A stretch of 64,000 nucleotides of DNA from NCBI GenBank assembly GCA_965201115.1, contig OZ241745.1:2953166-3017165 (forward strand), given 5' to 3'. Origin of the DNA: Alphaproteobacteria bacterium (GTDB lineage Bacteria; Pseudomonadota; Alphaproteobacteria; UBA7887). Positions 17,530-28,310 of this stretch are shown piece after piece. The notes under the pieces are model-generated. The model made no database searches. It was not told the origin of the DNA and saw only the letters and a list, made by a program, of their open reading frames with translations. Every line of letters begins with the position of its first letter. Within the stretch, counting starts at the first letter, position 1. The position numbers and the translations under genes are program-made.

Positions 17530-18850
17530 GCTGCGTGTAGTCCACCGAGAAACGCAGCGCAGCGCCGCCGCCGCGCGCCCCGAACGCGCAACCCGCGCCG
17601 TGCGGGCGTGGCGGGCGCTGTCACGCGCGCTGCCCCTTGCCTGCCCGGCGCGGCGCCGGCGGCCTACGCCGCTTCCGCCGCGTCCGGCCAGCGGAAGGGC
17701 TCGCCGCTCGCCAGCATGCGATGCAGGATGACCGCCAGCCGCCGCGCCAAGGCCACGCACGCCTTCTTGAAACCGCTTCGCTTGCGCAACCGCCGCGCCC
17801 AGTCCTTGAGCGGATGACCGCGCTTGACCCGCGTCAGCAGGCAAGCCGCGCACTCGTACAGCAGCGACCGCACGCCGGGATCGCCGTGGCGCGATATGCG
17901 CCCCGTCCAGTCCATCTCCCCCGATTGACGCCGACGCGGCACAAGCCCCACATACGCGCCCACAGATCGCGAATCGGCAAACCGCGCCGCATCGCCCAAG
18001 TTCGCAACCAGCGCCACAGCCGTCATCGGCCCCACGGCCGGAGCCGTCATCGACAGCCGGCAGGCCTTGCTGGCCCGCGCCCGCGCCTCCACCTGCCTGG
18101 TGAGCGCCTTGAGCGAATGCAGCGTCTGCGCCAGCGAAACCAGCAACGGCTCCACCGCTTCCTGCAGCGGCGTATCCATGACCGCCTCGCGAACCCGCGC
18201 CGAAAACCGGCCCGAACCCTTCGAAAGCCGAATCCCCGCCGAACCCAGGATGCCCCGGACCGTGTTCTCCGCGTCGCGGCGCTGGCGCACCATAAGCCCC
18301 CGCGCGCGCAACAGCGCCTGCGTATTCGCGTCCCAAGCCCGCTTCACCGAAACCGGGGGGCAGAACTTCGTGCGCGCGATATCCGCCAGCAACGCCGCGT
18401 CCTTCGCATCCGTCTTGTTCGTCTGAAGGCGAAGCACCGCGTGAACGCGCCGAGCGTCCACCACATCCACGGCCTGCCCCAACGCCTCCATCTCGCGCGC
18501 CAGCCAGCCCGAATACGTCCCCGTCTCCATGACCACGCGCGCCGGCGACGGGCAGTGCTCGCGCACCGCCGCAAACAACGCCGCCGGATCCGTCGCAACC
18601 TTGCCCGCGACAACCGTCGCACCCGCATCGTTCTTGACGCAAAACGCCGTCTCTTCCTTCGACACGTCGAAACCGACATACTCCGCCATGGTCGCTCTCC
18701 CTGTTGGGTCCGTGAGTGGGGCGCACAACCCTGCGTGCGCAGCCCCGCATGATAGACCCGGGAGAGCGACCGACCGGAATTATCCCATGTCGGCGCCCCG
18801 CGCGACGTCGGCGATCCCTCGGGGGGCGCCTTCGTTCGGCGCCATGTGCT
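17530..18850 (-). mobile_element. IS110-family insertion sequence (ends approximate; family lacks clear inverted repeats)
   Basis: Transposase gene plus flanking leader and trailer. 9-bp-stem hairpin about 100 bp downstream of the transposase stop (about 17528-17570). Confidence 0.3.
17664..18689 (-). CDS. IS110 family transposase
   Basis: MAEYVGFDVSKEETAFCV... (DEDD N-terminus) and C-terminal GVGPMTAVALVANLGDAARFADSRSVGAYVGLVPRRRQSGE.... Confidence 0.85.
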   Translation of the reverse strand: MAEYVGFDVSKEETAFCVKNDAGATVVAGKVATDPAALFAAVREHCPSPARVVMETGTYSGWLAREMEALGQAVDVVDARRVHAVLRLQTNKTDAKDAALLADIARTKFCPPVSVKRAWDANTQALLRARGLMVRQRRDAENTVRGILGSAGIRLSKGSGRFSARVREAVMDTPLQEAVEPLLVSLAQTLHSLKALTRQVEARARASKACRLSMTAPAVGPMTAVALVANLGDAARFADSRSVGAYVGLVPRRRQSGEMDWTGRISRHGDPGVRSLLYECAACLLTRVKRGHPLKDWARRLRKRSGFKKACVALARRLAVILHRMLASGEPFRWPDAAEAA

Positions 18851-18853
18851 ATA

Positions 18854-19921
18854 ATGGCCGCCATGCGCGAGATACACGATGCCTCCTTCAAACTGTTTTT
18901 CGAGCATGAGCGGGCGGTCGCCGACCTGCTCGGGGGTTTCATGCGGCAGGCGATGGGCCCGGAGTTCGATGTCTCGCGCCTCGACCTCGCCAGCCTCGAA
19001 CCGGCGCCGGCGGAGTACGTGGACGAGGATCTGCGGCAGACGCGGGGCGACCGCGTGTGGCGGCTGCGCTACCGCGCCGCCGACGGCACGACCGGCTGGG
19101 TCTATCTGCTGGTCATGCTGGAGTTTCAGTCGCAGGTCGACCTGGACATGGCGGTGCGCGTGTATGCGTACACGGCTCAGTTGTATTCGCGGCTTCGCCG
19201 GGACGACCGGAAGAACCGGCGCGCGGGACCGCTTCCGCCGGTTTTGCCGATTGTCGTTTACAACGGTCGTGCGCGTTGGTCTGCGTCGCGGGAGGTTCGC
19301 GACGAGATAGCGCCTGCGGAGGCGGCGCTGGAGCGTTTTCAGCCCCGGCAGGGTTACCTGCTGCTCGATGTTCATCGTCTGCGGCCGGAGGATTTGCCGG
19401 CGGGCAACGTTGTGTCGGCGCGTTTTGCGCTTGAGCACGGCGATCCGGAGGCCGTGCCGGCGGTTGTCGCGGCGTTGCGTCGGTTGCTTTCGGGTCCGGA
19501 GCATGCGAGTTTGCGCCGTGCGTTCGGGGCGACGCTTCGACACATGATCGAGGCGAACCGGTTCGGGGCTTCGGACGGCGCGCTGGCTGCGCGTTTGAGG
19601 CGGGTCGGGGATTTGGAGGATTTGGGCGCGATGGAATCGTTGTTTGCGGAACGGCTCGACAGTTTGCTTGCCGAGCGCGAAGCGCGCGGCGTATCTCTTG
19701 GCGAGGCGCACGGTCTTGAGCGTGGCGCGGCGCGCGAGCGTGCGCTTCTGGCGCGGCAGGCGGGCCGCAAGTTCGGGGCGGAGGCGGCTTCGCGGCTGGC
19801 GGCTGCGGTGGCGGGCGTGGACGATCCGGACCGACTCGAGGAGGTCGGCGACGCGGTGATCGTGTGCGCGAGCGGCGACGCGCTGCTGGCGCGCGCCAAG
19901 GAGATCGCCCACCGCCGCTGA
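18854..19921 (+). CDS. Rpn family recombination-promoting nuclease / putative transposase (YhgA-like, PD-(D/E)xK)
   Basis: MAAMREIHDASFKLFFEHERAVADLLGGF...WVYLLVMLEFQSQVDLDMAVRVYAYTAQLY. TATAAT hexamer at 18848-18853. Confidence 0.7.
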   Translation: MAAMREIHDASFKLFFEHERAVADLLGGFMRQAMGPEFDVSRLDLASLEPAPAEYVDEDLRQTRGDRVWRLRYRAADGTTGWVYLLVMLEFQSQVDLDMAVRVYAYTAQLYSRLRRDDRKNRRAGPLPPVLPIVVYNGRARWSASREVRDEIAPAEAALERFQPRQGYLLLDVHRLRPEDLPAGNVVSARFALEHGDPEAVPAVVAALRRLLSGPEHASLRRAFGATLRHMIEANRFGASDGALAARLRRVGDLEDLGAMESLFAERLDSLLAEREARGVSLGEAHGLERGAARERALLARQAGRKFGAEAASRLAAAVAGVDDPDRLEEVGDAVIVCASGDALLARAKEIAHRR

Positions 19922-20074
19922 CCGCGCGCCAGGGCGCGCTTCCCGGGATCGCAAGCGTCTCGACAGCCCCGAGCCCCGCGGATCCCCGCAATGCCCCGCC
20001 CGCTCCGGCGCGCTTCTTGGGTGCGCGGGCGTCTCGCCCGCACGTCGGCGACCCGCGCGGCGCCCGCCGGGGAG

Positions 20075-20160
20075 AGGCGCAACCCCGCCGAAGGCGGGGC
20101 CCGGGACCGCGGGCATCCTGCCCGCACGTTCCCGCACGCCGCGGCATTGCCGGGAAGGGC
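20075..20160. repeat. REP/MITE-like double-hairpin repeat unit (consensus core ccccgccgaaggcggggcccgggaccgcgggcatcctgcccgcacgtt)
   Basis: Copy of a family found at seven or more loci in the window. Translates as the spurious peptide RAGCPRSRAPPSAGL on the reverse strand. Confidence 0.5.
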
Positions 20161-20375
20161 AAAGCCGTTACGCCCCTCCCGCCAATGATCGGCACTGTCG
20201 AGACGCGCCCACGGCGCGTCTTGACCGGTCCCGAAATAACGTTGCGCTCGCGCGCCGTGTATGGCGTAATGCCTGCATCCGCGCGTTGCCCATTTCCGCC
20301 GAGGAGCGCTCCGTCATGACAATGCCCTGTCCACACCGAGGGGTTACGCCCTCGCTTGCCGTGCAAACAAACGTA

Positions 20376-20393
20376 CCCCCCCCCCCCCCCCCC
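20376..20393 (+). repeat. Homopolymeric poly-C(18) tract at the 5-prime end of the giant autotransporter gene (candidate slipped-strand phase-variation switch)
   Basis: 18 consecutive C, read as 6 Pro codons in ORFs 20286.. and 20356... Lies 20 nt upstream of ATG 20413. Confidence 0.6.
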
Positions 20394-20458
20394 GTGGCAG
20401 GCGGAATCTCGCATGGAAACGCTCGCTTCGGAGCATCGGCGCCGCGCTCGCGCCGGGG

Positions 20459-22810
20459 TTGCTTCTCGCGCTCGCCTTGTGGGCCGGGCATGCGCCGGCG
20501 CAGACGAACGTGTGCCGCGGCGGGCCGCCCACGGGCAGCGGAAATATCGAATGCGTCGAATCCAGCGGCGCGGCCGACATCCTCATCGCCCTGGGGAACG
20601 CCGGCATCGACCATTCCACCAACAACGAGGCGAGCATCCTGGCTCGTCACGGCGGTACCGGCGGCATCGAGTTTCGCATGACGGCCGGAACCGTCGTAGG
20701 CAGGGGGACCGCCACTCACGGCATGTATGCCCGGCACGACGGAGCGACCGGCGGCGGCGCCATAGTCATCCGCATGAGCGGCGGCTCCGTCGAGACGCGG
20801 GGGTCGGGCGCCTTTGCCATCTGGGGCAGGCGCGCGACCGGGACGGGCAATATCCGCATCGACGTGACCGGCGGTTCCCTGTCGAGAACGGGGGGGACAG
20901 GCGATGTCGTTTTGGGCCAACACGGGGGGACGGGCAACGTAAGCGTCAGCATGAGCGGCAGCGCGGCGACGGGGACGAACGTCGGCGGCCTCGCCGGCGC
21001 CCACTCCGGGACGGGCAACATCGCCGTCAGCATGACCGGCGGCTCCATCGCGACGAGCGGCGTGGGCGTCACCGCCTCGAAGAGCAGCTCCACGGCGGGC
21101 AACATAACCGTCACCGTCGCGGGCGCGAACACTACGGTCAAGACGACGGGCAGCAACGGCCACGCCGTCAACGCCTCCAACAGCGGGGCGGGCAGCACCG
21201 CGGTCACCGTGAAAGACGGCCTGATCGAGACGAGCGGAGGCGGGGCCCGGGGCATCAACGCCTATTCCAACTATACGGGGACGAACCCCGGAGCGATCTC
21301 CGTCGTCATGGAAGGCGGCGCGGTCCGCACGTCGGGCGGGGCTTACTTCGATATCCTCCACGCCCACGGGATTTACGCCGAGAGCAACAATGGGCGCCAC
21401 AACGTCTCGGTGCGCATGGCGGGCGGCTCGGTCGAGACGGCGCAGGCAAGCGCCAACGGGATAATCGTCCTCAAGCGGGGGCCGGCGGGAGCGGGCTCCA
21501 TCGAGATGACGGGCGGCTCGGTCAGAACGGCGGGCGACGGCGCCCGCGGCGCCTACGTCTATATGTATGGAACCGGCGCGAGCACGGAGGGGCTTTCTAT
21601 CGACGCGGAGGGCGCCGTCTCCGCGGAGGGTCTGAACGCCAGAGGTCTCGCGGGATTCCACTTGGGCCTCGGCTCCGCCACTATAACGACGCGGGCGGCG
21701 GCGGAGATCGAGGCGCCGTTCGCGGTCGGGATGGAGGGGCGTCTCACGAGCGATACGAGCGCGGCGGGGCGCATCGTGGTCACGCATGGGGGCGCGGTCG
21801 AGGCGCGGGATGTCGGCGTGCTCGCGTGGGCGCGGCGGTCGAGCGGCCACACGATGGGCTCCGGCGCGACGACGGCGAACGACGCGGCGCGGACGACGCC
21901 GATGATCCACGTTACGTCGAGCGGAACGGTCACGGTGGGCGCGCCGGTGACGGAGGCTTTCATCCGGGGCCGCATCGCGGGCGACGGCGGACTGTCGACG
22001 CTCGAGGAGGCCGTGCTTACGGCGATAACGGATAACGATTCGAGCGCGCTGACGACGGCGCTGGCGGCGCTTCCGGCTTCTTACGACGCCGCCTGGAAGG
22101 CGGCGGCGCAGGAACTTCTGCGCAAGCGCACGACGGCGACCGCGACACCGACCGACAACGCGGTGCTGGGGCATCGTGCGGCCGAGGAGATCTTGGGCCT
22201 TTCGCGCGCGGGCATCCGCGCTTCGGCGCTTTCCCACACGGCGATCGCCGATTATGTGCGCGGCAGCGACGCGCTCTCGACCGCGGAGCGCACGGCGCTG
22301 ACGGCCGTGCTGACGGGCGACAGCAGCGGGCTGACGACGGCGCTGACCGCCCTTACCGGCGCCGCGTACACGACGGCGTGGAAGAACACGGTCCGGCAAC
22401 ACGCGTTGACCTACAATGCCGGCGATATTCAGGTGGACATTACGGGCGGCTCCATTACCGCCGACGGGAACGGCGTGGAGGCGTTCTATGCGATCCCGCA
22501 CGACAGCAACGGCGACATCGCGGTGACGGTTTCCGCCGGCGCGCGTGTTACGGGCGGTGCGACGGGCATCTATGTCCGCGGCGCGGGCGTGACGGCGGGC
22601 GCGCGCAACCAAGCGGTGACGGTCCACGGCGCCGCGATGGGCGGAACCGGGGCGGGCGTGCATGCGGTCGGCGGCGGCGCGGTGACGGTGGGCGCGAGCG
22701 GCGAGGTAGGCACGGTGGGCGCGGCGCCTTCGGGCATCGGCATTCTCGGCGATGGCGGCGGCGATCTGACGGCGACGGTTTCGGGGACGGTGACGGGCGA
22801 CATCCGCGTC
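20459..22810 (+). CDS. Giant autotransporter adhesin, N-terminal reading-frame segment (signal peptide plus Gly/Thr-rich passenger repeats); frame broken at 5-prime end and at about 22.8 kb
   Basis: Frame 2 encodes RSLRSIGAALAPGLLLALALWAGHAPAQ (signal peptide) but has no in-frame ATG as sequenced. Repeats continue to ...TVSGTVTGDIRV at 22810, then the true frame shifts +1. Confidence 0.6.
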
Positions 22811-25800
22811 AGTCAATGGCGGCGGCGGCCTGGCGGCGACGGTCAAGGACGGCGGCACGGTTACGGGCGACATCCGCGTCGGCGGCAGCGGTTCGTTGAC
22901 GGCGATGGTCGAGGCCGGCGGCGCGGTGGAGGGGACGATACGCGACCCGCAGGCTTCGTTCACGGTTTCGGGCAGCGTCGGGCGCGTTCTCTATGCTTCG
23001 GGCGGAACGGTGACGGTGGCCGGGGGCGCGAAACTGACGGGCGTCTCCGGCACGGCCGCCGAGAGCACGGCGGGGGCGCTGACGGTCACGGTCCAAAACC
23101 GGGGCCGCGTCGAGGCCGACATCGAGTCCGGCGGGACGCTGATGGTTACCGTCAACGACGGCGGCGTGGTAACGGGGACGATAGAGGATCCGCAGGCTTC
23201 GTTCACGGTCGGGAGCGGGGCGCGCATCGGGCGCATTCTTTACACCGGCAGCAGCGGCGGGACGGTGACGGTGTCCGGCGGCGGGACGCTTACGGGCGTC
23301 GAGGGCGTGGCCGCCGAGAGCACGGACTCGGGGGGCGCGCTGACGGTCACGGTGAACGACAACGGCCGCGTCGAGGGCGACGTCAAGTCGGCCGGCACGC
23401 TGTCGGCGACCGTCGATGCCGGCGGCGTGGTTACGGGGACGATACACGACCCGCAGGCTTCGTTCACGGTTTCGGGCAGCGTCGGTCGCGTTCTCTATGC
23501 CTCGGGCGGAACGGTGACGGTGTCCGGCGGCGCGAAGCTGACGGGCGTCGAGGGCGTGGCCGCCGAGAGCACGGCCGGCGCGCTGACGGTTGCGGTGAAC
23601 GACAACGGCCGCGTGGAGGGCGATATCAAGTCGGGCGGCACGCTGTCGGCAACCGTCGATGCCGGCGGCGTGGTTACGGGAACGATACACAACCCGCAAG
23701 CTTCGTTCACGGTTTCGGGCAGCGTCGGTCGCGTTCTTTACGCCAGCGGCGGAACGGTGACGGTGTCCGGCGGCGCGAAGCTGACGGGCGTCGAGGGCGT
23801 GGCGGCGGAGAGCGCGGCGGGCGCACTGACGGTCACGGTGAACGACAACGGCCGCGTCGAAGGCGACGTCAAGTCGGCCGGCACACTGTCGGCGACGGTC
23901 AACGTCGGCGGCGTCGTGACGGGGACGATACACAACCCGCAAACGCCGTTCACGGTTTCGGGCAGCGTCGGGCGCGTTCTTTACGCCGGCGGCGGAGCGG
24001 TGACGGTATCCGCGGGCGGGACGCTGACGGGCGTCGAGGGCGTGGCCATCGAGAGCACAACCGGCGCGCTGACGGTCACGGTGAGCAACCGGGGCCGCGT
24101 CGAGGGCGGCATCGAATCGGGCGGGACGCTGACGGCGAACGTCATGGCCGGCGGCGTCGTGACCGGAACGCTCCGCAACCCGCAGAGTCCGCTCACGGTT
24201 TCGGGCAGTGTGGGGCGCATTCTCTATGCCCGCGCGAGCGGCGGGACGGTGACGGTCGCCGCCGGCGGCGCGGTAACGGGCGTCGAGGTCGATGGCGCAA
24301 CCGAGGCGATCCGCGGCAATGCGGGCAATCTCGACGTCACGGTGGCGGCGAGGGGCGCGGTCACGGGTCTCGTCGAGGGCCGCGGGCCGGGCAATCTGAA
24401 GGTTACGGTCGCCGGCTCGTTGGCGGGCGGCATTGCCGAGCGCGCCGCGGGCGATCTTGAGGTTTCGGTCGCCGGAACGGTTACGGGCGGCATTGTCGGC
24501 GCGGGCGCGGGCGAACACACGGTCACGGTGGCGTCCGGCGGCGCGGTTACGGGGACGGTACATTTGGCGACCGGCGCGGCGACCATCGCGGGCCGCGCGG
24601 CGCGCGTGCTTTACGACAACGGCGGCATGGCGACGGTCGCCGCGGGCGGCGAGATCGCGGGCGTCGATGTCGAGGGAACGATGGAGGCGATTCGCAACGA
24701 TGCGGGCAATCTCGAGGTCACGGTTGCGTCCGATGGGGAGGTTGCGGGGCGCATCGAGGATCGCGGCGCGGGCAATCTCGAGGTCGAGGTTTCCGGCGCG
24801 GTCGCGGGCGGCATCGTCGAACGCGAGGCGGGCAATCTGGACGTCACGGTGACGGCCAGCGGCGCGGTCACGGGCAACATCGAGGGCCGCGATGCGGGCA
24901 ATCTGAAGGCCGCGGTCTCCGGAAACGTAACCGGCGATATCGTCGAACGCGGGGCGGGCGATCTCGACGTCACGGTGTCGGCAACGGTCACGGGCGGCAT
25001 TGTCGGCGAGGGCGCGGGGGCGCACAAGGTGTCGGTGGAGTCCGCCGGCGCGGTAACAGGCACGGTGCGCCTGCCGGGGAACGCGGAGACGACGGTCGCG
25101 GGCACGGTGGGGCGCGTTCATTACGACAACGGAGGCGCGGTCACGGTCAACGCGAACGGCGAGATTGCGGGCCTCGAGATCGAGGGCGTCCGGGAGGCGG
25201 TCCGCGGCGACGCGGGGGATTTGGCGGTTACCGTTCACGGGACGGTAACGGGCAATATCGAGGCGCGCGGCGATGGCGACCTGACGGTGATGGTTTCGGA
25301 GACCGGGACGATTGCGGGGGAGATATTCGGTCGCGGCGGGGGCATGCATACGATCGAGATCGCGGACAAGGCGCGGGTTGTGGGCACGGTGCATAACCCG
25401 AAGCGGGGGACGACCATAAGCGGCGCGGTGGGCCGCGTTCTGTTCGACAACGGCGGCGCGCTGACGATTGCGGCGAGCGGTCGCGTCTCTGGCGTCGGCG
25501 GCGAGGCGATCCGCAGCGCGGCGGGCGACCTGGAGGTCGCGATTGCCGGCGAGGCGACCGGAAATGTTGAGAGCCGCGGCGGGGCGCTGGCGGCGACGGT
25601 AACCGGCACGGTCGAGGGCGACATACTGGGTCTCGGCGCCGGCGAGCACACGGTGGCGGTTCGCGGCGGCGGGATGGTTACGGGCACGGTGCGCCTGGCG
25701 GCGGGCGAGGCGGATGTGGAGCACGGCGCGGCCGGGCGCGTGCTGCTGGACCGGGGCGGGTCCGTGAAGGTCGGGGCGCGGGGCGAAATCAAGGGCCTCG

Positions 25801-28310
25801 AGGTCGAGGGCGTTCGGGAAGCGATCCGTTCCGACGCGGGAGACCTGACGGTGGCGATTGCGTCCGGCGGCGCGGTCAAGGGCCGCATCGAGGGGCGCGG
25901 CGCGGGCAACATGACCGTGAACGCGGGCGGCGCGGTGACGGGCGCCATCCTTGGCAAGGGCGCCGGTAGGCACGAGATCGCGGTCGCCTCCGGCGGCTCG
26001 GTTACGGGCGACATCGTCGATATGGAGGCCGGCGGCCTGGTCGCGACGGTCGCGGGTTCGGTTACGGGCGCAATTGAGGAGCGCGGCGCGGGGGACCTGA
26101 CGGTAACGGTTGCGGGCGCGGTTTCCGGGGATATCCGCGGCCTGGGCGCCGGCGTGCATCGGGTTACGGTTGCGTCCGGCGGTTCGGTTGCGGGCGCCAT
26201 CCGCGGCGCGGGCGCGGGTTCGCACGCAGCGACGGTCGCGGGCCGCGCGGCGCGCGTGCTCTACGAGAACGGCGGTTCGGTCACGGTCGCATCCGGCGGC
26301 GCGGTGTTGGGCGTCGGGACTTCGGACGGCGGTCGCGAGGCGATCCGCGGCGCGGCGGGCGACCTGACGGTGGACGTAGCGGCGATGGGGACCGTGGCGG
26401 GCGATATCCGCGGCGCGGGCGATGGCGATCTGAAGGTGGATGTGAGCGGCAAGGTCGAGGGCGGGATATTCGGCCTTGGCGGCGGCGAGCACGACGTTCA
26501 TGTGAAATCCGGCGGCTCGGTCGAAGGTCTCATCCACCTGGCCGCCAGCACGGTGACGGTCGAAGGGGCCGCCCGGAGCGTGCTGTTCGACCGCGGCGGC
26601 ACGGTGTCGGTCGGCGCCGGGGGGCGCCTGTCGAACCTCGACGGGCGTGCGGCGGTGCGCAGCGAAGCCGGCGATCTGATGGCGATGGTGAACGGCAATG
26701 TCACAGGCAATATCGAGGGCATGGGCGCCGGAGCGCTGATGGTCACGGTCGCCAACGAACTGACCGGCGGCGTCATCGGCGGCGACGGCGGCATGCACCG
26801 GCTGACGGTGGCGGCCGGCGGGACGTTCAAGGGGCACGTCGAGGGCCTGGAGGCCATTCGCATCGCCGGGCGCGCGGAAGCGGCGCGCCCGCTGACGGTT
26901 TCCGATGGCGGCGAGGTGACGGTCGCGGCTGGCGGCGTGCTCATGGGCGCGGAGGACGCGCAGGGCCGCCGCGTGGCGGTCTCCGTTGCAACGGGCGCGC
27001 TGAACATGACGGTCGAAGGGGAAGGCATGGTGCAGGGCGCCGTGGAGGCGCGCGACGCCGCCGCCGCCTCGACCGTGACGGTCGATGCCGGCGGCGCCAT
27101 CGACGGCCGCGTCGCGCTGGCGGGCGCCGGCAGCGAAGTCACGGTCGACGGCGCGGCGCAGAGCGTCGATGTGCCCCGGGGCGCGGTGACGGTGGGCGAG
27201 AACGGGCGCATCGCGGAGCCCGTCATCGGCGCCGAGACGGTAACGATACGTGCGGCGGCGGGCGAAACCGACGAGGAGGCGGCGCTGCGCCTGGGCGGCG
27301 GCCGCATCGACGCCGCCGGCGCGACGATTACGCTCAAGCGCCAGGGCCGCGTCGATTCGCGTCTCCGGATAACCCGCGACGGTCGCATCGAGGTGGGGCC
27401 GGCGCCGCGCCACCGCGTGTACGAAGCTCTGCCTTCGGCTCTGCTGGCGCTGAATGCACTGCCCGCCCACGGCGACCGTTTCGCCGCGGCGGGCGCGCCG
27501 CGCGGCGCGTTCGCGCGCCTCGACGCCGCCGGCGGCGACCGCCATCCGGCGTCGTCTGTCGCGCAGGCGCATCACGATTACCGCCGCTTCGGTTTCGAGG
27601 CGGGGATAGAGGGCGCGGCGGGCGAGCGCGGCGTGTTCGCGATCTCGGTTCATCATGTGCGCGGCCGCGCGGACGTGGACACGGACGCGGACACCGAGGC
27701 GGGCGGCGGCCGTGTCGAGATAACCGGCACGGGCGCGCGCATATCGGGCGCATGGCTGCCCGCGGAGAACGTCTATGTGAGCGCTCAGGCCGCGGCGACG
27801 CTGTACGAGACCGACCTCGATTCGGACGTGGCGCTCGAGGGCGCCCTTGCGCGGGACTTGTCGGGCCGCGGCTACGCCGCCGGCGTGGAGATCGGGCGGC
27901 GCCTCGACCTGGGCCGCGTAACGCTGACGCCGCGCGCGGGCGCCGATTGGTCGATGGTGGAGATGTCGTCGTTCACGGACTCCGTGAACGAGCGCGTGTC
28001 GCTGGACGCGGGCCGGCGCATAACGGCCCGCGCCGGCGTGCGCGCCGAGTCCGCCGCCCTCCCCGGCGGCGCCGGCGCCATGTTCGCAACGCTGGACCTT
28101 GAGCGCGAACTGTCCGGCGCAATGGAAACCACGGCGGCGGACCGCCCCTTCGAAGCCGAAGCGGAAGCGACATGGGCCCGCCTCGGCCTCGGCGCCGCCC
28201 ACGAATGGGCCGACGGCCGCATAGCCCTCCGCGCCAACGCCAACTACGCCGCCGCCCGCCACGGCAACCGAGACTTCAGCGGCAGCGCCGCACTCACCGT
28301 GCGCTTCTGA
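22809..28310 (+). CDS. Giant autotransporter adhesin, C-terminal segment: about 1,500 aa of tandem Gly/Val/Thr-rich passenger repeats plus autotransporter beta-barrel translocator (ends ...AALTVRF)
   Basis: Frame 0 is open from 22794 (first ATG at 22896). Repeats are of the type GGxVTGTIxDPQASFTVSGSVGRVLYASGGTVTVSGGAKLTGVEGVAAESTAGALTVTVNDNGRVEGD. C-terminal beta domain has a terminal aromatic residue. Confidence 0.7.
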   Translation, partial: SVNGGGGLAATVKDGGTVTGDIRVGGSGSLTAMVEAGGAVEGTIRDPQASFTVSGSVGRVLYASGGTVTVAGGAKLTGVSGTAAESTAGALTVTVQNRGRVEADIESGGTLMVTVNDGGVVTGTIEDPQASFTVGSGARIGRILYTGSSGGTVTVSGGGTLTGVEGVAAESTDSGGALTVTVNDNGRVEGDVKSAGTLSATVDAGGVVTGTIHDPQASFTVSGSVGRVLYASGGTVTVSGGAKLTGVEGVAAESTAGALTVAVNDNGRVEGDIKSGGTLSATVDAGGVVTGTIHNPQASFTVSGSVGRVLYASGGTVTVSGGAKLTGVEGVAAESAAGALTVTVNDNGRVEGDVKSAGTLSATVNVGGVVTGTIHNPQTPFTVSGSVGRVLYAGGGAVTVSAGGTLTGVEGVAIESTTGALTVTVSNRGRVEGGIESGGTLTANVMAGGVVTGTLRNPQSPLTVSGSVGRILYARASGGTVTVAAGGAVTGVEVDGATEAIRGNAGNLDVTVAARGAVTGLVEGRGPGNLKVTVAGSLAGGIAERAAGDLEVSVAGTVTGGIVGAGAGEHTVTVASGGAVTGTVHLATGAATIAGRAARVLYDNGGMATVAAGGEIAGVDVEGTMEAIRNDAGNLEVTVASDGEVAGRIEDRGAGNLEVEVSGAVAGGIVEREAGNLDVTVTASGAVTGNIEGRDAGNLKAAVSGNVTGDIVERGAGDLDVTVSATVTGGIVGEGAGAHKVSVESAGAVTGTVRLPGNAETTVAGTVGRVHYDNGGAVTVNANGEIAGLEIEGVREAVRGDAGDLAVTVHGTVTGNIEARGDGDLTVMVSETGTIAGEIFGRGGGMHTIEIADKARVVGTVHNPKRGTTISGAVGRVLFDNGGALTIAASGRVSGVGGEAIRSAAGDLEVAIAGEATGNVESRGGALAATVTGTVEGDILGLGAGEHTVAVRGGGMVTGTVRLAAGEADVEHGAAGRVLLDRGGSVKVGARGEIKGLEVEGVREAIRSDAGDLTVAIASGGAVKGRIEGRGAGNMTVNAGGAVTGAILGKGAGRHEIAVASGGSVTGDIVDMEAGGLVATVAGSVTGAIEERGAGDLTVTVAGAVSGDIRGLGAGVHRVTVASGGSVAGAIRGAGAGSHAATVAGRAARVLYENGGSVTVASGGAVLGVGTSDGGREAIRGAAGDLTVDVAAMGTVAGDIRGAGDGDLKVDVSGKVEGGIFGLGGGEHDVHVKSGGSVEGLIHLAASTVTVEGAARSVLFDRGGTVSVGAGGRLSNLDGRAAVRSEAGDLMAMVNGNVTGNIEGMGAGALMVTVANELTGGVIGGDGGMHRLTVAAGGTFKGHVEGLEAIRIAGRAEAARPLTVSDGGEVTVAAGGVLMGAEDAQGRRVAVSVATGALNMTVEGEGMVQGAVEARDAAAASTVTVDAGGAIDGRVALAGAGSEVTVDGAAQSVDVPRGAVTVGENGRIAEPVIGAETVTIRAAAGETDEEAALRLGGGRIDAAGATITLKRQGRVDSRLRITRDGRIEVGPAPRHRVYEALPSALLALNALPAHGDRFAAAGAPRGAFARLDAAGGDRHPASSVAQAHHDYRRFGFEAGIEGAAGERGVFAISVHHVRGRADVDTDADTEAGGGRVEITGTGARISGAWLPAENVYVSAQAAATLYETDLDSDVALEGALARDLSGRGYAAGVEIGRRLDLGRVTLTPRAGADWSMVEMSSFTDSVNERVSLDAGRRITARAGVRAESAALPGGAGAMFATLDLERELSGAMETTAADRPFEAEAEATWARLGLGAAHEWADGRIALRANANYAAARHGNRDFSGSAALTVRF

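What the first reader, a model, noticed from the sequence alone, without database searches (positions are those of the whole stretch)
20376..20413. 18-nt poly-C tract at the 5-prime end of the giant autotransporter gene; the signal-peptide frame has no in-frame start as sequenced
A C18 homopolymer at 20376-20393 sits 20 nt upstream of ATG 20413. That ATG is in frame 1, while the evident signal peptide (RSLRSIGAALAPGLLLALALWAGHAPAQ) and the whole passenger are in frame 2. With 19 C the upstream ATGs at 20316/20322 would read through a poly-Pro linker into the signal-peptide frame. Alternatively, a 1-nt deletion just after ATG 20413 gives MERSLRSIG.... Long homopolymeric tracts at the 5-prime end of surface-adhesin genes are the classic slipped-strand phase-variation switch. 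The gene appears to be in an OFF state, or the homopolymer length is mis-called.
Basis: partly seen in the sequence, partly recalled or inferred. Interest (0 to 1): 0.75.

Follow-up and report, generated by a model that had tools for sequence, protein, structure and literature searches.

The report
Poly-C frame switch in autotransporter gene
An 18-cytosine run at the start of a giant surface-protein gene looks like a slippage-prone on/off switch of a known kind that is shared by a whole gene family, but this copy is one C out of frame and is also broken further down by a 4-base duplication.

Summary
The C18 run at 20376-20393 is real; the next longest homopolymer in the 64 kb is 7. The signal-peptide frame has no ATG/GTG/TTG between TAA 20267 and TTG 20459. 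One extra C joins a Shine-Dalgarno-preceded ATG (20316) to the signal peptide.

About 21 homologous copies in complete MAG chromosomes and metagenome contigs carry a pure C run (8-32 nt) at the same position. Flanks are conserved and an upstream SD+ATG/GTG always reads into the run. In 13 of 21 copies the upstream start is in frame with the signal peptide (p=0.007). L024 (pure run) and L010a (decayed run) have no other start. This is slipped-strand translational phase variation, as in meningococcal NalP/MspA.

- The passenger is not all in one frame. A 4-bp tandem duplication (GTCA, 22809-22816), absent from intact homologues, shifts it to frame 3, so C19 alone gives a 1381-codon product without the beta-barrel.
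- The proposed frame-2 GTG start is impossible.

Most homologues also keep an internal SD+ATG after the tract, so a leader-ORF regulatory role remains a rival. Tract lengths come from assemblies and may be off by one.

Verdict: new member of a known kind, in a probably decaying copy.

The parts
20301..20306 (+). Shine-Dalgarno-like GAGGAG, 9 nt upstream of ATG 20316
   Evidence: Sequence. The same GAGGAGCGCTCCGTC-ATG is found in the closest relative, L002. Every tract-bearing homologue has a purine-rich SD before its upstream start.
20316..20375 (+). Upstream start codons (ATG 20316 and ATG 20322, frame 3) and 20 codons (MTMPCPHRGVTPSLAVQTNV) that read into the tract
   Evidence: As sequenced this ORF runs 121 codons out of frame over the autotransporter start. 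With C19 it is continuous with the signal peptide.
20376..20393 (+). C18 homopolymer, read as Pro codons in any frame; the proposed slipped-strand switch
   Evidence: Homologous tracts: C8, 9, 11, 12, 12, 13, 13, 14, 15, 16, 16, 17, 17, 18, 19, 25, 27, 30, 31 and 32.
20394..20416 (+). Spacer between the tract and the signal peptide. It contains ATG 20413-20415, which is out of frame (frame 1) and has only a weak SD (AGGCGGA).
   Evidence: Homologues have an in-frame SD+ATG/GTG in this region; the window does not.
20417..20503 (+). Signal peptide coding region (KRSLRSIGAALAPGLLLALALWAGHAPAQ), frame 2
   Evidence: From LAPGLLLALALWAGHAPAQ onward it is identical to the L001 homologue.
20504..22808 (+). 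N-terminal part of the passenger, frame 2
   Evidence: 76% identity to P0001; 80-86% nucleotide identity to homologues.
22809..22816 (+). GTCAGTCA: a 4-bp tandem duplication causing a +1 frameshift from frame 2 to frame 3
   Evidence: and blastn: L013 (two copies) and L003/L021 lack 4 nt exactly here (…CCGC----GTCGATGG…). Removing it together with C19 gives one 2663-aa ORF.
22813..27533 (+). Rest of the passenger, frame 3, including 243-nt tandem repeats x5.4 at 22900-24230
27534..28310 (+). Autotransporter beta-barrel domain and stop codon (the protein ends ...LTVRF)
   Evidence: PF03797, E=4.3e-28. TIGR01414, E=1.7e-22.

Best explanation
The C18 run is a hypermutable simple-sequence tract. 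It lies in the translated 5' end of a classical (type Va) autotransporter gene, between an SD-preceded upstream start codon (ATG 20316) and the signal peptide.

Proposed mechanism: slipped-strand mispairing during replication changes the number of C. Only lengths of 3n+1 (16, 19, 22...) put the upstream start in frame with the signal peptide. The precursor would then be MTMPCPHRGVTPSLAVQTNV-Pro(n)-RGRRNLAWKRSLRSIGAALAPGLLLALALWAGHAPAQ.... Unlike most homologues, the window copy has no in-frame internal start after the tract, so here the tract decides ON or OFF. As sequenced (C18) the copy is OFF by one base.

Independently, a 4-bp tandem duplication at 22809-22816 separates the passenger from the beta-barrel. 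This copy is therefore most likely a decaying member of a multi-copy, phase-variable family.

Shown here: the tract, the frames, the family-wide conservation and length variation of the tract, the frame bias, and the second lesion.

Inferred: that translation starts at 20316, that the tract length changes at high frequency in the population, and that expression follows tract length.
For: 1. The tract and frames are as described.
2. Nineteen further tract-bearing copies were tabulated in loci L001-L019. They come from complete chromosomes labelled Alpha- and Gammaproteobacteria and from metagenome contigs. Each has a C run at the homologous position. Pre-tract and post-tract flanks are conserved, but lengths run from 8 to 32. 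One genome holds copies of 30 and 8; another holds 9, 12, 12, 13 and 16. L023 (C13) and L024 (C31) add two more.
3. Every copy has an ATG or GTG with a purine-rich SD upstream that reads into the tract.
4. The upstream start is in frame with the signal peptide in 11 of 18 copies that also have an internal start (p=0.014), and in 13 of 21 pure-tract copies (p=0.007). In the 11 loci where one frame would run past the internal start out of frame, 10 are in-frame fusions and none is in the run-past state.
5. L010a (tract decayed to C6TC5, locked in frame) and L024 (C31) have no internal start at all. In them the upstream ATG is the only possible start.
6. A sigma70-like promoter (TTGTCT-18-TATAAT) lies upstream of the upstream start in L018, and nothing resembling a -10 element lies between the tract and the start. 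The tract is therefore transcribed.
7. Precedent: the meningococcal autotransporters NalP and MspA carry poly-C tracts of 6-15 nt in the coding sequence, with expression only at 7/10/13 or 6/9/12 C (PMC3723659).
8. The 4-nt insertion is shown against intact homologues. In silico, C19 plus removal of the GTCA copy restores a 2663-aa ORF ending in the barrel.
Against: - No reads are available, so tract heterogeneity and switching are not shown. Long homopolymer lengths in long-read assemblies can be off by a base.
- 18 of the 20 tabulated copies (all but the window and L010a) keep a conserved internal SD+ATG/GTG after the tract, and L013 has only that start. Expression may therefore not depend on the upstream start in much of the family.
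- In complete chromosomes alone the in-frame excess is not significant (7/14, p=0.15). The strong 10/11 result comes from a post hoc split, and the copies are paralogues, not independent samples.
- The pre-tract peptide is not conserved at the amino-acid level. The DNA is conserved across 1-nt frame differences (L004a versus L017a; L014 versus L005).
- A 4-10 proline N-terminal extension on a Sec signal peptide has not been tested.
Confidence: 0.6

Rival explanations
1. Assembly miscall: the true majority length is 19 C (or another 3n+1 length) and the 5' end of the gene is intact. The apparent lack of a start would be a homopolymer consensus error.
For: - The relatives come from long-read metagenome assemblies (contig names with coverage tags), where an 18-mer homopolymer can be mis-counted by one.
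- 10 of 11 comparable loci are in frame, so an in-frame state is the family norm.
Against: - The source and sequencing technology of the window are unknown.
- The same gene carries a non-homopolymer 4-bp duplication frameshift. That is not a typical consensus error and shows this copy is not under selection to stay open. Other high-coverage copies (L003 at 251x, L001 at 50x, L014) are also frameshifted.
- This rival concerns the state of the tract, not what the tract is.
Confidence: 0.2
2. Leader-ORF regulator rather than frame switch. The upstream start opens a short leader ORF whose ribosomes must cross poly-C/poly-Pro, and the autotransporter itself starts at the internal SD+ATG. The tract would then act through one of three routes: ribosome stalling that depends on EF-P or proline; shielding of a C-rich, unstructured Rho-loading site; or the position where the leader ORF ends (fused, xTGA overlap with the internal start, or TGA inside the internal SD). 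On this view the window copy lost its internal start through a 1-nt insertion after ATG 20413.
For: - An internal SD+ATG/GTG is conserved in 18 of the 20 tabulated copies, and is the only start in L013.
- In 7 loci both alternative frames stop at or just before the internal start, and all three states occur there (1 fusion, 4 overlap, 2 early stop).
- The tract is predicted unpaired, and the leaders are less structured than shuffled sequence (z +0.1 to +2.2). That fits a Rho-utilisation site. Leader-ORF shielding of such sites is known for tnaC, speFL and Bordetella cruR (PMC12360218).
- Deleting one A after ATG 20413 gives a normal signal peptide, MERSLRSIG....
Against: - A regulator of this kind does not need an uninterrupted homopolymer, nor lengths that vary from 8 to 32.
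- The in-frame bias (13/21; 10/11 in run-past-capable loci) is not expected if the leader ORF is separate.
- L010a and L024 have no internal start.
- The window's residues between the tract and the hydrophobic core do not align at DNA level with the homologues' ATG-AGC start.
- Stalling and Rho action are untested.
Confidence: 0.15
3. Promoter-spacer switch: the tract changes the -35/-10 spacing or activator-site spacing, as in Bordetella fim genes or meningococcal porA/opc, and so varies transcription.
For: Homopolymeric C/G tracts in promoters are a known class (own knowledge; titles and abstracts listed). The tract lies upstream of where the signal peptide begins.
Against: - No -10-like hexamer lies in the 16-34 nt between tract and start in any locus, and no promoter-like site is found in window 19800-20600.
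- A promoter-like site lies upstream of the upstream start in L018.
- Lengths of 8-32 nt are incompatible with a functional 16-18 nt spacer.
- The frame bias is not expected for a transcriptional switch.
Confidence: 0.03

Closest known systems
NalP and MspA autotransporters of Neisseria meningitidis (poly-C tract in the coding sequence)
   Same: Classical autotransporters with a poly-C run in the coding sequence. Tract length differs between strains (6-15 nt) and only one length class in three gives protein (PMC3723659). The window tract has the same logic: 3n+1 C joins the start to the signal peptide.
   Different: - The tracts here are longer (up to 32).
- They sit before the signal-peptide core, in an N-terminal extension that starts at a separate SD+ATG.
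- Most family members also keep an internal start after the tract.
- The hosts are uncultivated high-GC bacteria known only as MAGs.
- No expression data exist.
Homopolymeric-tract contingency loci in Bordetella pertussis, Campylobacter and other host-adapted bacteria
   Same: G/C homopolymers are concentrated at the 5' ends of surface-protein genes. Copies are often found frameshifted or decaying (titles and abstracts of PMC1891110, PMC7168839 and PMC8355987). The flanks of the related loci here also hold G11 in the signal peptide of a 5043-aa adhesin, G17 abutting the GTG start of another autotransporter, and G16 inside a membrane-protein gene.
   Different: Those systems are in cultured pathogens, with switching measured experimentally. 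Here the only evidence is variation between paralogues and between genomes.
Promoter or 5'-UTR repeat switches of adhesin genes (Bordetella fim poly-C; Moraxella catarrhalis uspA1 poly-G in the 5' UTR)
   Same: A homopolymer upstream of the mature coding region of a surface protein (own knowledge, not tested here).
   Different: Those act on transcription or mRNA level and are frame-independent. Here the tract is downstream of an SD+ATG, shows a frame bias, and has no -10 element after it.
Leader-ORF (uORF) controlled Rho attenuation: tnaC, speFL, Bordetella cruR
   Same: A short SD-preceded ORF lies upstream of the main start, next to or over a C-rich unstructured RNA stretch that a stalled ribosome could shield (PMC12360218; folds).
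   Different: Those leaders sense a ligand and do not contain hypermutable homopolymers. No evidence for stalling or Rho action exists here.

Membership tests
Simple-sequence-repeat translational phase-variable gene (contingency locus, NalP/MspA type) | Uninterrupted homopolymer long enough to slip (about 7 nt or more) | tested here: met
   C18 at 20376-20393; the next longest run in 64 kb is 7.
Simple-sequence-repeat translational phase-variable gene (contingency locus, NalP/MspA type) | The tract lies between the start codon and the body of the ORF, so a length change shifts the frame | tested here: met
   SD GAGGAG plus ATG 20316 read into the tract. C19 or C16 gives an open fusion to the signal peptide; C18 stops after 121 out-of-frame codons. 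There is no other start in the signal-peptide frame. Use of ATG 20316 as the start is inferred, not shown.
Simple-sequence-repeat translational phase-variable gene (contingency locus, NalP/MspA type) | Tract length varies between strains or copies while the flanks stay conserved | tested here: met
   Lengths of 8-32 in 20 other copies, with conserved pre- and post-tract sequence, including several lengths within one genome.
Simple-sequence-repeat translational phase-variable gene (contingency locus, NalP/MspA type) | Selection on frame: the in-frame state is over-represented | tested here: inconclusive
   13/21 in frame (p=0.007); 10/11 in loci where an out-of-frame run-past is possible. But only 7/14 (p=0.15) in complete chromosomes, the copies are non-independent, and assembly lengths are uncertain.
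Simple-sequence-repeat translational phase-variable gene (contingency locus, NalP/MspA type) | High-frequency reversible length change within a clonal population, with expression following length | not testable with these tools
   No reads, cultures or expression data.
Classical (type Va) autotransporter | N-terminal Sec signal peptide, passenger, and C-terminal beta-barrel ending in an aromatic residue | tested here: met
   Signal peptide at 20417-20503. PF03797 E=4.3e-28 and TIGR01414 E=1.7e-22. The protein ends ...LTVRF.
Classical (type Va) autotransporter | All parts in one intact reading frame (a functional gene) | tested here: not met
   No in-frame start as sequenced, and a 4-bp duplication frameshift at 22809-22816.
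Promoter-spacer homopolymer switch (Bordetella fim, Neisseria porA/opc type) | Tract located between the -35 (or activator site) and -10 promoter elements | tested here: not met
   No -10-like element after the tract. No promoter-like site in 19800-20600. A promoter-like site lies upstream of the upstream start in L018.
Leader-ORF / Rho attenuator (tnaC, speFL, cruR type) | SD-preceded short ORF upstream of the main start, with an adjacent unstructured C-rich Rho-loading site | tested here: inconclusive
   An upstream ORF is present in all copies and the tract is predicted unpaired. But the window has no in-frame main start, and stalling and Rho dependence cannot be tested.

The most novel reading that the evidence does not exclude
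The leader is a transferable three-state cassette rather than a simple ON/OFF tract. A strong upstream start is followed by poly-C (poly-Pro in every frame) and then an internal SD+ATG placed so that the two alternative frames end at xTGA overlapping the internal start or at a TGA inside its SD.

Tract length would then select among three outcomes: an N-terminally extended precursor, termination-reinitiation coupling, or early termination. The effect might run through ribosome stalling on poly-Pro or through shielding of a poly-C Rho-loading site.

The cassette and the autotransporter N-domain would also be exchanged between Alpha-, Gammaproteobacteria and Nitrospirales living in one community (85-94% nucleotide identity).
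Probability: 0.15. Interest if true: 0.7.

Novelty: new member of a known kind. Interest (0 to 1): 0.45.

Why it matters
Contingency loci are known almost only from cultured, host-adapted pathogens. Here a multi-copy autotransporter family carries very long poly-C tracts at a fixed place in its 5' end. The family was found only in uncultivated high-GC bacteria of at least three lineages, apparently from one community.

If read-level data confirm length heterogeneity, stochastic switching of surface proteins would also be a strategy in such communities. The shared N-domains and leaders would then point to exchange of ready-made switchable adhesin genes between phyla.

There is also a practical point for annotation. 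Gene callers split or mis-start these genes, and every database protein found for this family was a fragment. The family is easy to miss or to mistake for junk.

Tried and rejected
- A poly-C:SD hairpin that sequesters the ribosome-binding site is not supported. The tract is unpaired in all six folded leaders, and none folds significantly better than shuffled sequence (z -1.3 to +2.2).
- A promoter-spacer switch is not supported. There is no -10 element after the tract and no promoter-like site in the window region.
- A known RNA family in the leader was not found. Rfam gave only chance-level hits far below gathering scores.
- The alignment A1, which included distant members, was too diverse for a locus search. 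A2 worked.
- Two scans of JGI metagenome contigs (a protein pattern and a signal-peptide DNA pattern) found no relatives.
- A literature search for the accession numbers of the related MAGs found nothing, so the environment is unknown.
- Pfam on the whole 1832-aa C-terminal part missed the beta-barrel. Scanning the last 366 aa alone found it.
- My first automatic classification of leader-ORF outcomes mislabelled open fusions as early stops. It was recomputed.

Full report
**1. The observation**

The window is 70.7% GC. The run of 18 C at 20376-20393 is present exactly as described. No other homopolymer in the 64 kb exceeds 7 nt. C-run counts fall about four-fold per added base (175 runs of 4, 36 of 5, 10 of 6, 1 of 7), so an 18-mer is far outside chance.

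- ATG 20413 lies 19 nt after the tract, in frame 1. It reads arginine-rich junk for 540 codons.
- The signal peptide KRSLRSIGAALAPGLLLALALWAGHAPAQ is in frame 2, at 20417-20503.
- In that frame the nearest upstream stop is TAA 20267. The first ATG/GTG/TTG after it is TTG 20459, inside the hydrophobic core. As sequenced, the signal-peptide frame has no usable start.
That GTG (20257) is in frame 1, and the frame-2 ATG at 20261 is followed by TAA two codons later.

**2. The gene**

The last 366 residues before the stop at 28310 match the autotransporter beta-barrel (PF03797, E=4.3e-28; TIGR01414, E=1.7e-22). The protein ends ...LTVRF.

The barrel and most of the passenger are in frame 3, not frame 2. 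The change of frame happens at 22809-22816, where the sequence reads CGC GTCA GTCA ATGG. L013 (two copies) and L003/L021 lack four bases exactly here. The window therefore carries a 4-bp tandem duplication, which is a +1 frameshift.

In-silico edits:
- C19 alone gives a 1381-codon product that ends in junk at 24460, without the barrel.
- C19 plus removal of one GTCA gives a single 2663-residue ORF from ATG 20316 to the barrel.

The tract is not the only lesion.

**3. Relatives**

A protein search with the N-terminal 500 residues found only 16 proteins, all of them fragments of split genes. Fetching their contigs and scanning one genome per species gave 25 loci.

- The genome hits are complete chromosomes of MAGs labelled only as Alphaproteobacteria, Gammaproteobacteria or Nitrospirales bacterium, all with accessions in the OZ241xxx-OZ243xxx range.
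- The other loci are contigs of three ENA metagenome assemblies.
- Two scans of JGI metagenomes found nothing, and the accession numbers appear in no held paper. The habitat is unknown.
- The family is multi-copy: at least six copies in OZ241901.1, often in tandem.
- Thirteen of the sixteen genome loci hold a copy that is intact in one frame (1447-2002 residues, ending in F or Y). L001, L003 and L014 are frameshifted despite high coverage, as are the low-coverage contigs L002, L004 and L005.
- The L003 break is a 1-nt deletion in a non-homopolymer context at 251x coverage. The L014 break lies in a G9 run.

Decay of individual copies is common in this family.

**4. The tract is a family feature**

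In 21 copies, counting the window, a pure C run sits at the same place just upstream of the signal peptide. The lengths are 8, 9, 11, 12, 12, 13, 13, 14, 15, 16, 16, 17, 17, 18, 18, 19, 25, 27, 30, 31 and 32.

- The flanks are conserved. A typical leader is GGAGGAGAGAAGCCG-ATGGAACGNCCGACCCTTCGTCTCG-(C)n-GCACAGGCTTGAGGAGCGCGTC-ATGAGCACTCGG.
- One genome has copies of 30 and 8 with near-identical flanks (L001, L018). Another has 9, 12, 12, 13 and 16.
- The window's closest relative, L002, shares the whole leader from about 75 nt upstream of the upstream ATG, and has C17.
- In L010a the run has decayed to C6TC5, and in L022 to C7AC3.

Conserved flanks around a length-variable but pure run are the expected signature of a hypermutable repeat. 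Lengths from assemblies may be off by a base.

**5. What lies around the tract**

Every tract-bearing copy has an ATG (or GTG in L007, L017b and L023) with a purine-rich Shine-Dalgarno sequence upstream. That start reads into the tract. In the window it is GAGGAG, then 9 nt, then ATG 20316.

Eighteen of the 20 tabulated copies also have a second SD+ATG/GTG 16-34 nt after the tract, at the head of the signal peptide (MSTRTLAA...). The exceptions are:
- the window;
- L010a (MEHPVLCPPPPERIASVRAPVAALAPGLLL...);
- L024, outside that tabulation (MEDNDMQNELALM-Pro10-RTYRGETRRTRIAAAARLAAG...).

In these three the upstream start is the only possible one. L013 has no tract and keeps only the internal SD+ATG.

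The peptide before the tract is not conserved as protein. The DNA is conserved across 1-nt frame differences (L004a versus L017a, L014 versus L005).

A sigma70-like promoter (TTGTCT-18-TATAAT) lies upstream of the upstream start in L018. Nothing resembling a -10 element lies between tract and start in any copy, and no promoter-like site is found in window 19800-20600. The tract is therefore transcribed and is not a promoter spacer.

RNA folding predicts the tract unpaired. None of the leaders folds significantly better than shuffled sequence (z -1.3 to +2.2), so a hairpin that hides the ribosome-binding site is not supported. Rfam finds nothing.

**6. Frame statistics**

I computed the fate of the upstream ORF for each copy, as sequenced and with +1 or +2 C.

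Among the 18 copies with an internal start:

| Outcome | Copies |
|---|---|
| In-frame fusion | 11 |
| Stop at a TGA overlapping the internal start (ATGA/GTGA) | 5 |
| Stop at a TGA 10 nt before the internal start | 2 |
| Run past the internal start out of frame | 0 |

- Eleven of 18 against an expectation of one third gives p=0.014. With L023, L024 and the window, 13 of 21 are in frame (p=0.007).
- In the 11 loci where one of the three frames would run past the internal start, 10 are fusions, 1 is an overlap and none runs past.
- In the 7 loci where both other frames stop at or before the internal start, all three states occur (1, 4, 2).

The second group has the strongest internal starts (GAGGAG plus ATG in 6 of 7). 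The first group has weaker ones (GGGAG, GTG, or none).

My reading is that where the internal start is weak or absent, expression depends on the upstream start and the frame is under selection. Where it is strong, the tract may not gate expression.

Caveats:
- The split is post hoc.
- The copies are paralogues, not independent samples.
- In complete chromosomes alone the excess is 7 of 14 (p=0.15).
- Tract lengths are assembly calls.

**7. The window copy**

The window copy belongs to the group that depends on the upstream start, because it has no in-frame internal start.

- C18 leaves the upstream ORF out of frame. It ends after 121 codons, at 20681.
- C19 or C16 gives MTMPCPHRGVTPSLAVQTNV-Pro(n)-RGRRNLAWKRSLRSIGAALAPGLLLALALWAGHAPAQ-TNVCRGG....

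So the gene is OFF by one C, or the run is mis-called by one.

However, that ATG has only a weak SD, and the region does not align at DNA level with the homologues' ATG-AGC start.

Either way, the 4-bp duplication means the tract alone cannot restore a functional autotransporter.

**8. Comparison with known systems**

The nearest match is translational phase variation of the meningococcal autotransporters NalP and MspA. They carry poly-C tracts of 6-15 nt in the coding sequence, with protein made only at 7/10/13 or 6/9/12 C (PMC3723659).

The differences here are:
- longer tracts;
- a position in an N-terminal extension before the signal-peptide core;
- the frequent presence of a second start;
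- uncultivated hosts.

A leader-ORF model remains a minority rival, most plausible for the copies with a strong internal start. In that model ribosomes stall on poly-Pro, or shield a C-rich Rho-loading site as in tnaC, speFL or Bordetella cruR (PMC12360218). It does not explain the need for a pure homopolymer, the 8-32 nt range, the frame bias, or the copies without an internal start.

**9. Verdict**

It rests on comparative evidence, not on evidence of switching.

The locus is a new member of a known kind, seen in a copy that is OFF by one C and additionally broken. Interest is moderate. The family-wide cassette, its three-way frame layout and its spread across phyla are the parts worth following up.

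Noticed in passing
window 22809-22816: A 4-bp tandem duplication (GTCA GTCA) shifts the autotransporter from frame 2 to frame 3. It is absent from homologues L013 and L003/L021.
   Followed up: yes
L004, L005, L010-L015 (autotransporter N-domain, about 2-2.9 kb): The N-terminal 2-3 kb of the autotransporter genes is 85-94% identical at nucleotide level between chromosomes labelled Alphaproteobacteria, Gammaproteobacteria and Nitrospirales (for example L005 vs L010 93%, L005 vs L013 94%, L004 vs L015 89%). This suggests recent exchange between co-resident lineages.
   Followed up: partly
L015 5681-5849 and 10517-10763: In a Nitrospirales chromosome, two adjacent autotransporter paralogues have a perfect 13-nt tandem repeat (GTTTCTCTCTTAC) upstream in place of poly-C: 13.0 copies before one and 19.0 before the other. 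This is a second kind of length-variable repeat in front of the same gene family.
   Followed up: partly
L015 1503-1519: A G17 run directly abuts the GTG start of a third autotransporter paralogue (VNVSLALTLALLLGSGGEAAAQ...) in the Nitrospirales chromosome.
   Followed up: no
L001 1375-1385 (minus-strand gene): A G11 run (in the sense of the gene) lies inside the signal-peptide region (MKGAGKRGRGAVWRALVGGGGALAGVAFA...) of a 5043-residue LapA/Calx-beta-type adhesin gene. It is in frame as assembled.
   Followed up: no
L020 2381-2396 (minus-strand gene); L014 10357-10365: A 16-nt G run (in the sense of the gene) sits where a membrane-protein ORF changes frame. A G9 run sits at the frameshift in the beta-barrel region of the L014 autotransporter. 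Either could be a further intragenic switch or a homopolymer miscall.
   Followed up: no
L010 5875-5960; L024 310-470: Two family members have no internal start after the tract. In L010a the tract has decayed to C6TC5 and is locked in frame. L024 has C31, in frame, with an unrelated AT-rich pre-tract ORF (MEDNDMQNELALM).
   Followed up: yes
window 18716-19921: The gene immediately upstream of the autotransporter leader encodes a YhgA/Rpn-type recombination-promoting nuclease or putative transposase (PF04754, E=7e-24; weak NCBIfam RpnA/ISNCY hits).
   Followed up: partly
window 22900-24230: The passenger contains 5.4 tandem copies of a 243-nt (81-residue) unit at 81% identity. L003/L021 has a longer array of about 249-nt units.
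   Followed up: no
window 20020-20230 and L002 200-370: The intergenic region before the leader holds GC-rich palindromic, REP-like repeats shared with L002. Rfam gives only sub-threshold hits there (naRNA4 20.1 bits against a gathering score of 59.5).
   Followed up: no
proteins P0001-P0013: Every database protein found for this family is a fragment of 340-781 residues ending in arginine-rich out-of-frame sequence. Several begin with the pre-tract ORF and a poly-Pro stretch. Gene callers mis-start and split these genes.
   Followed up: yes
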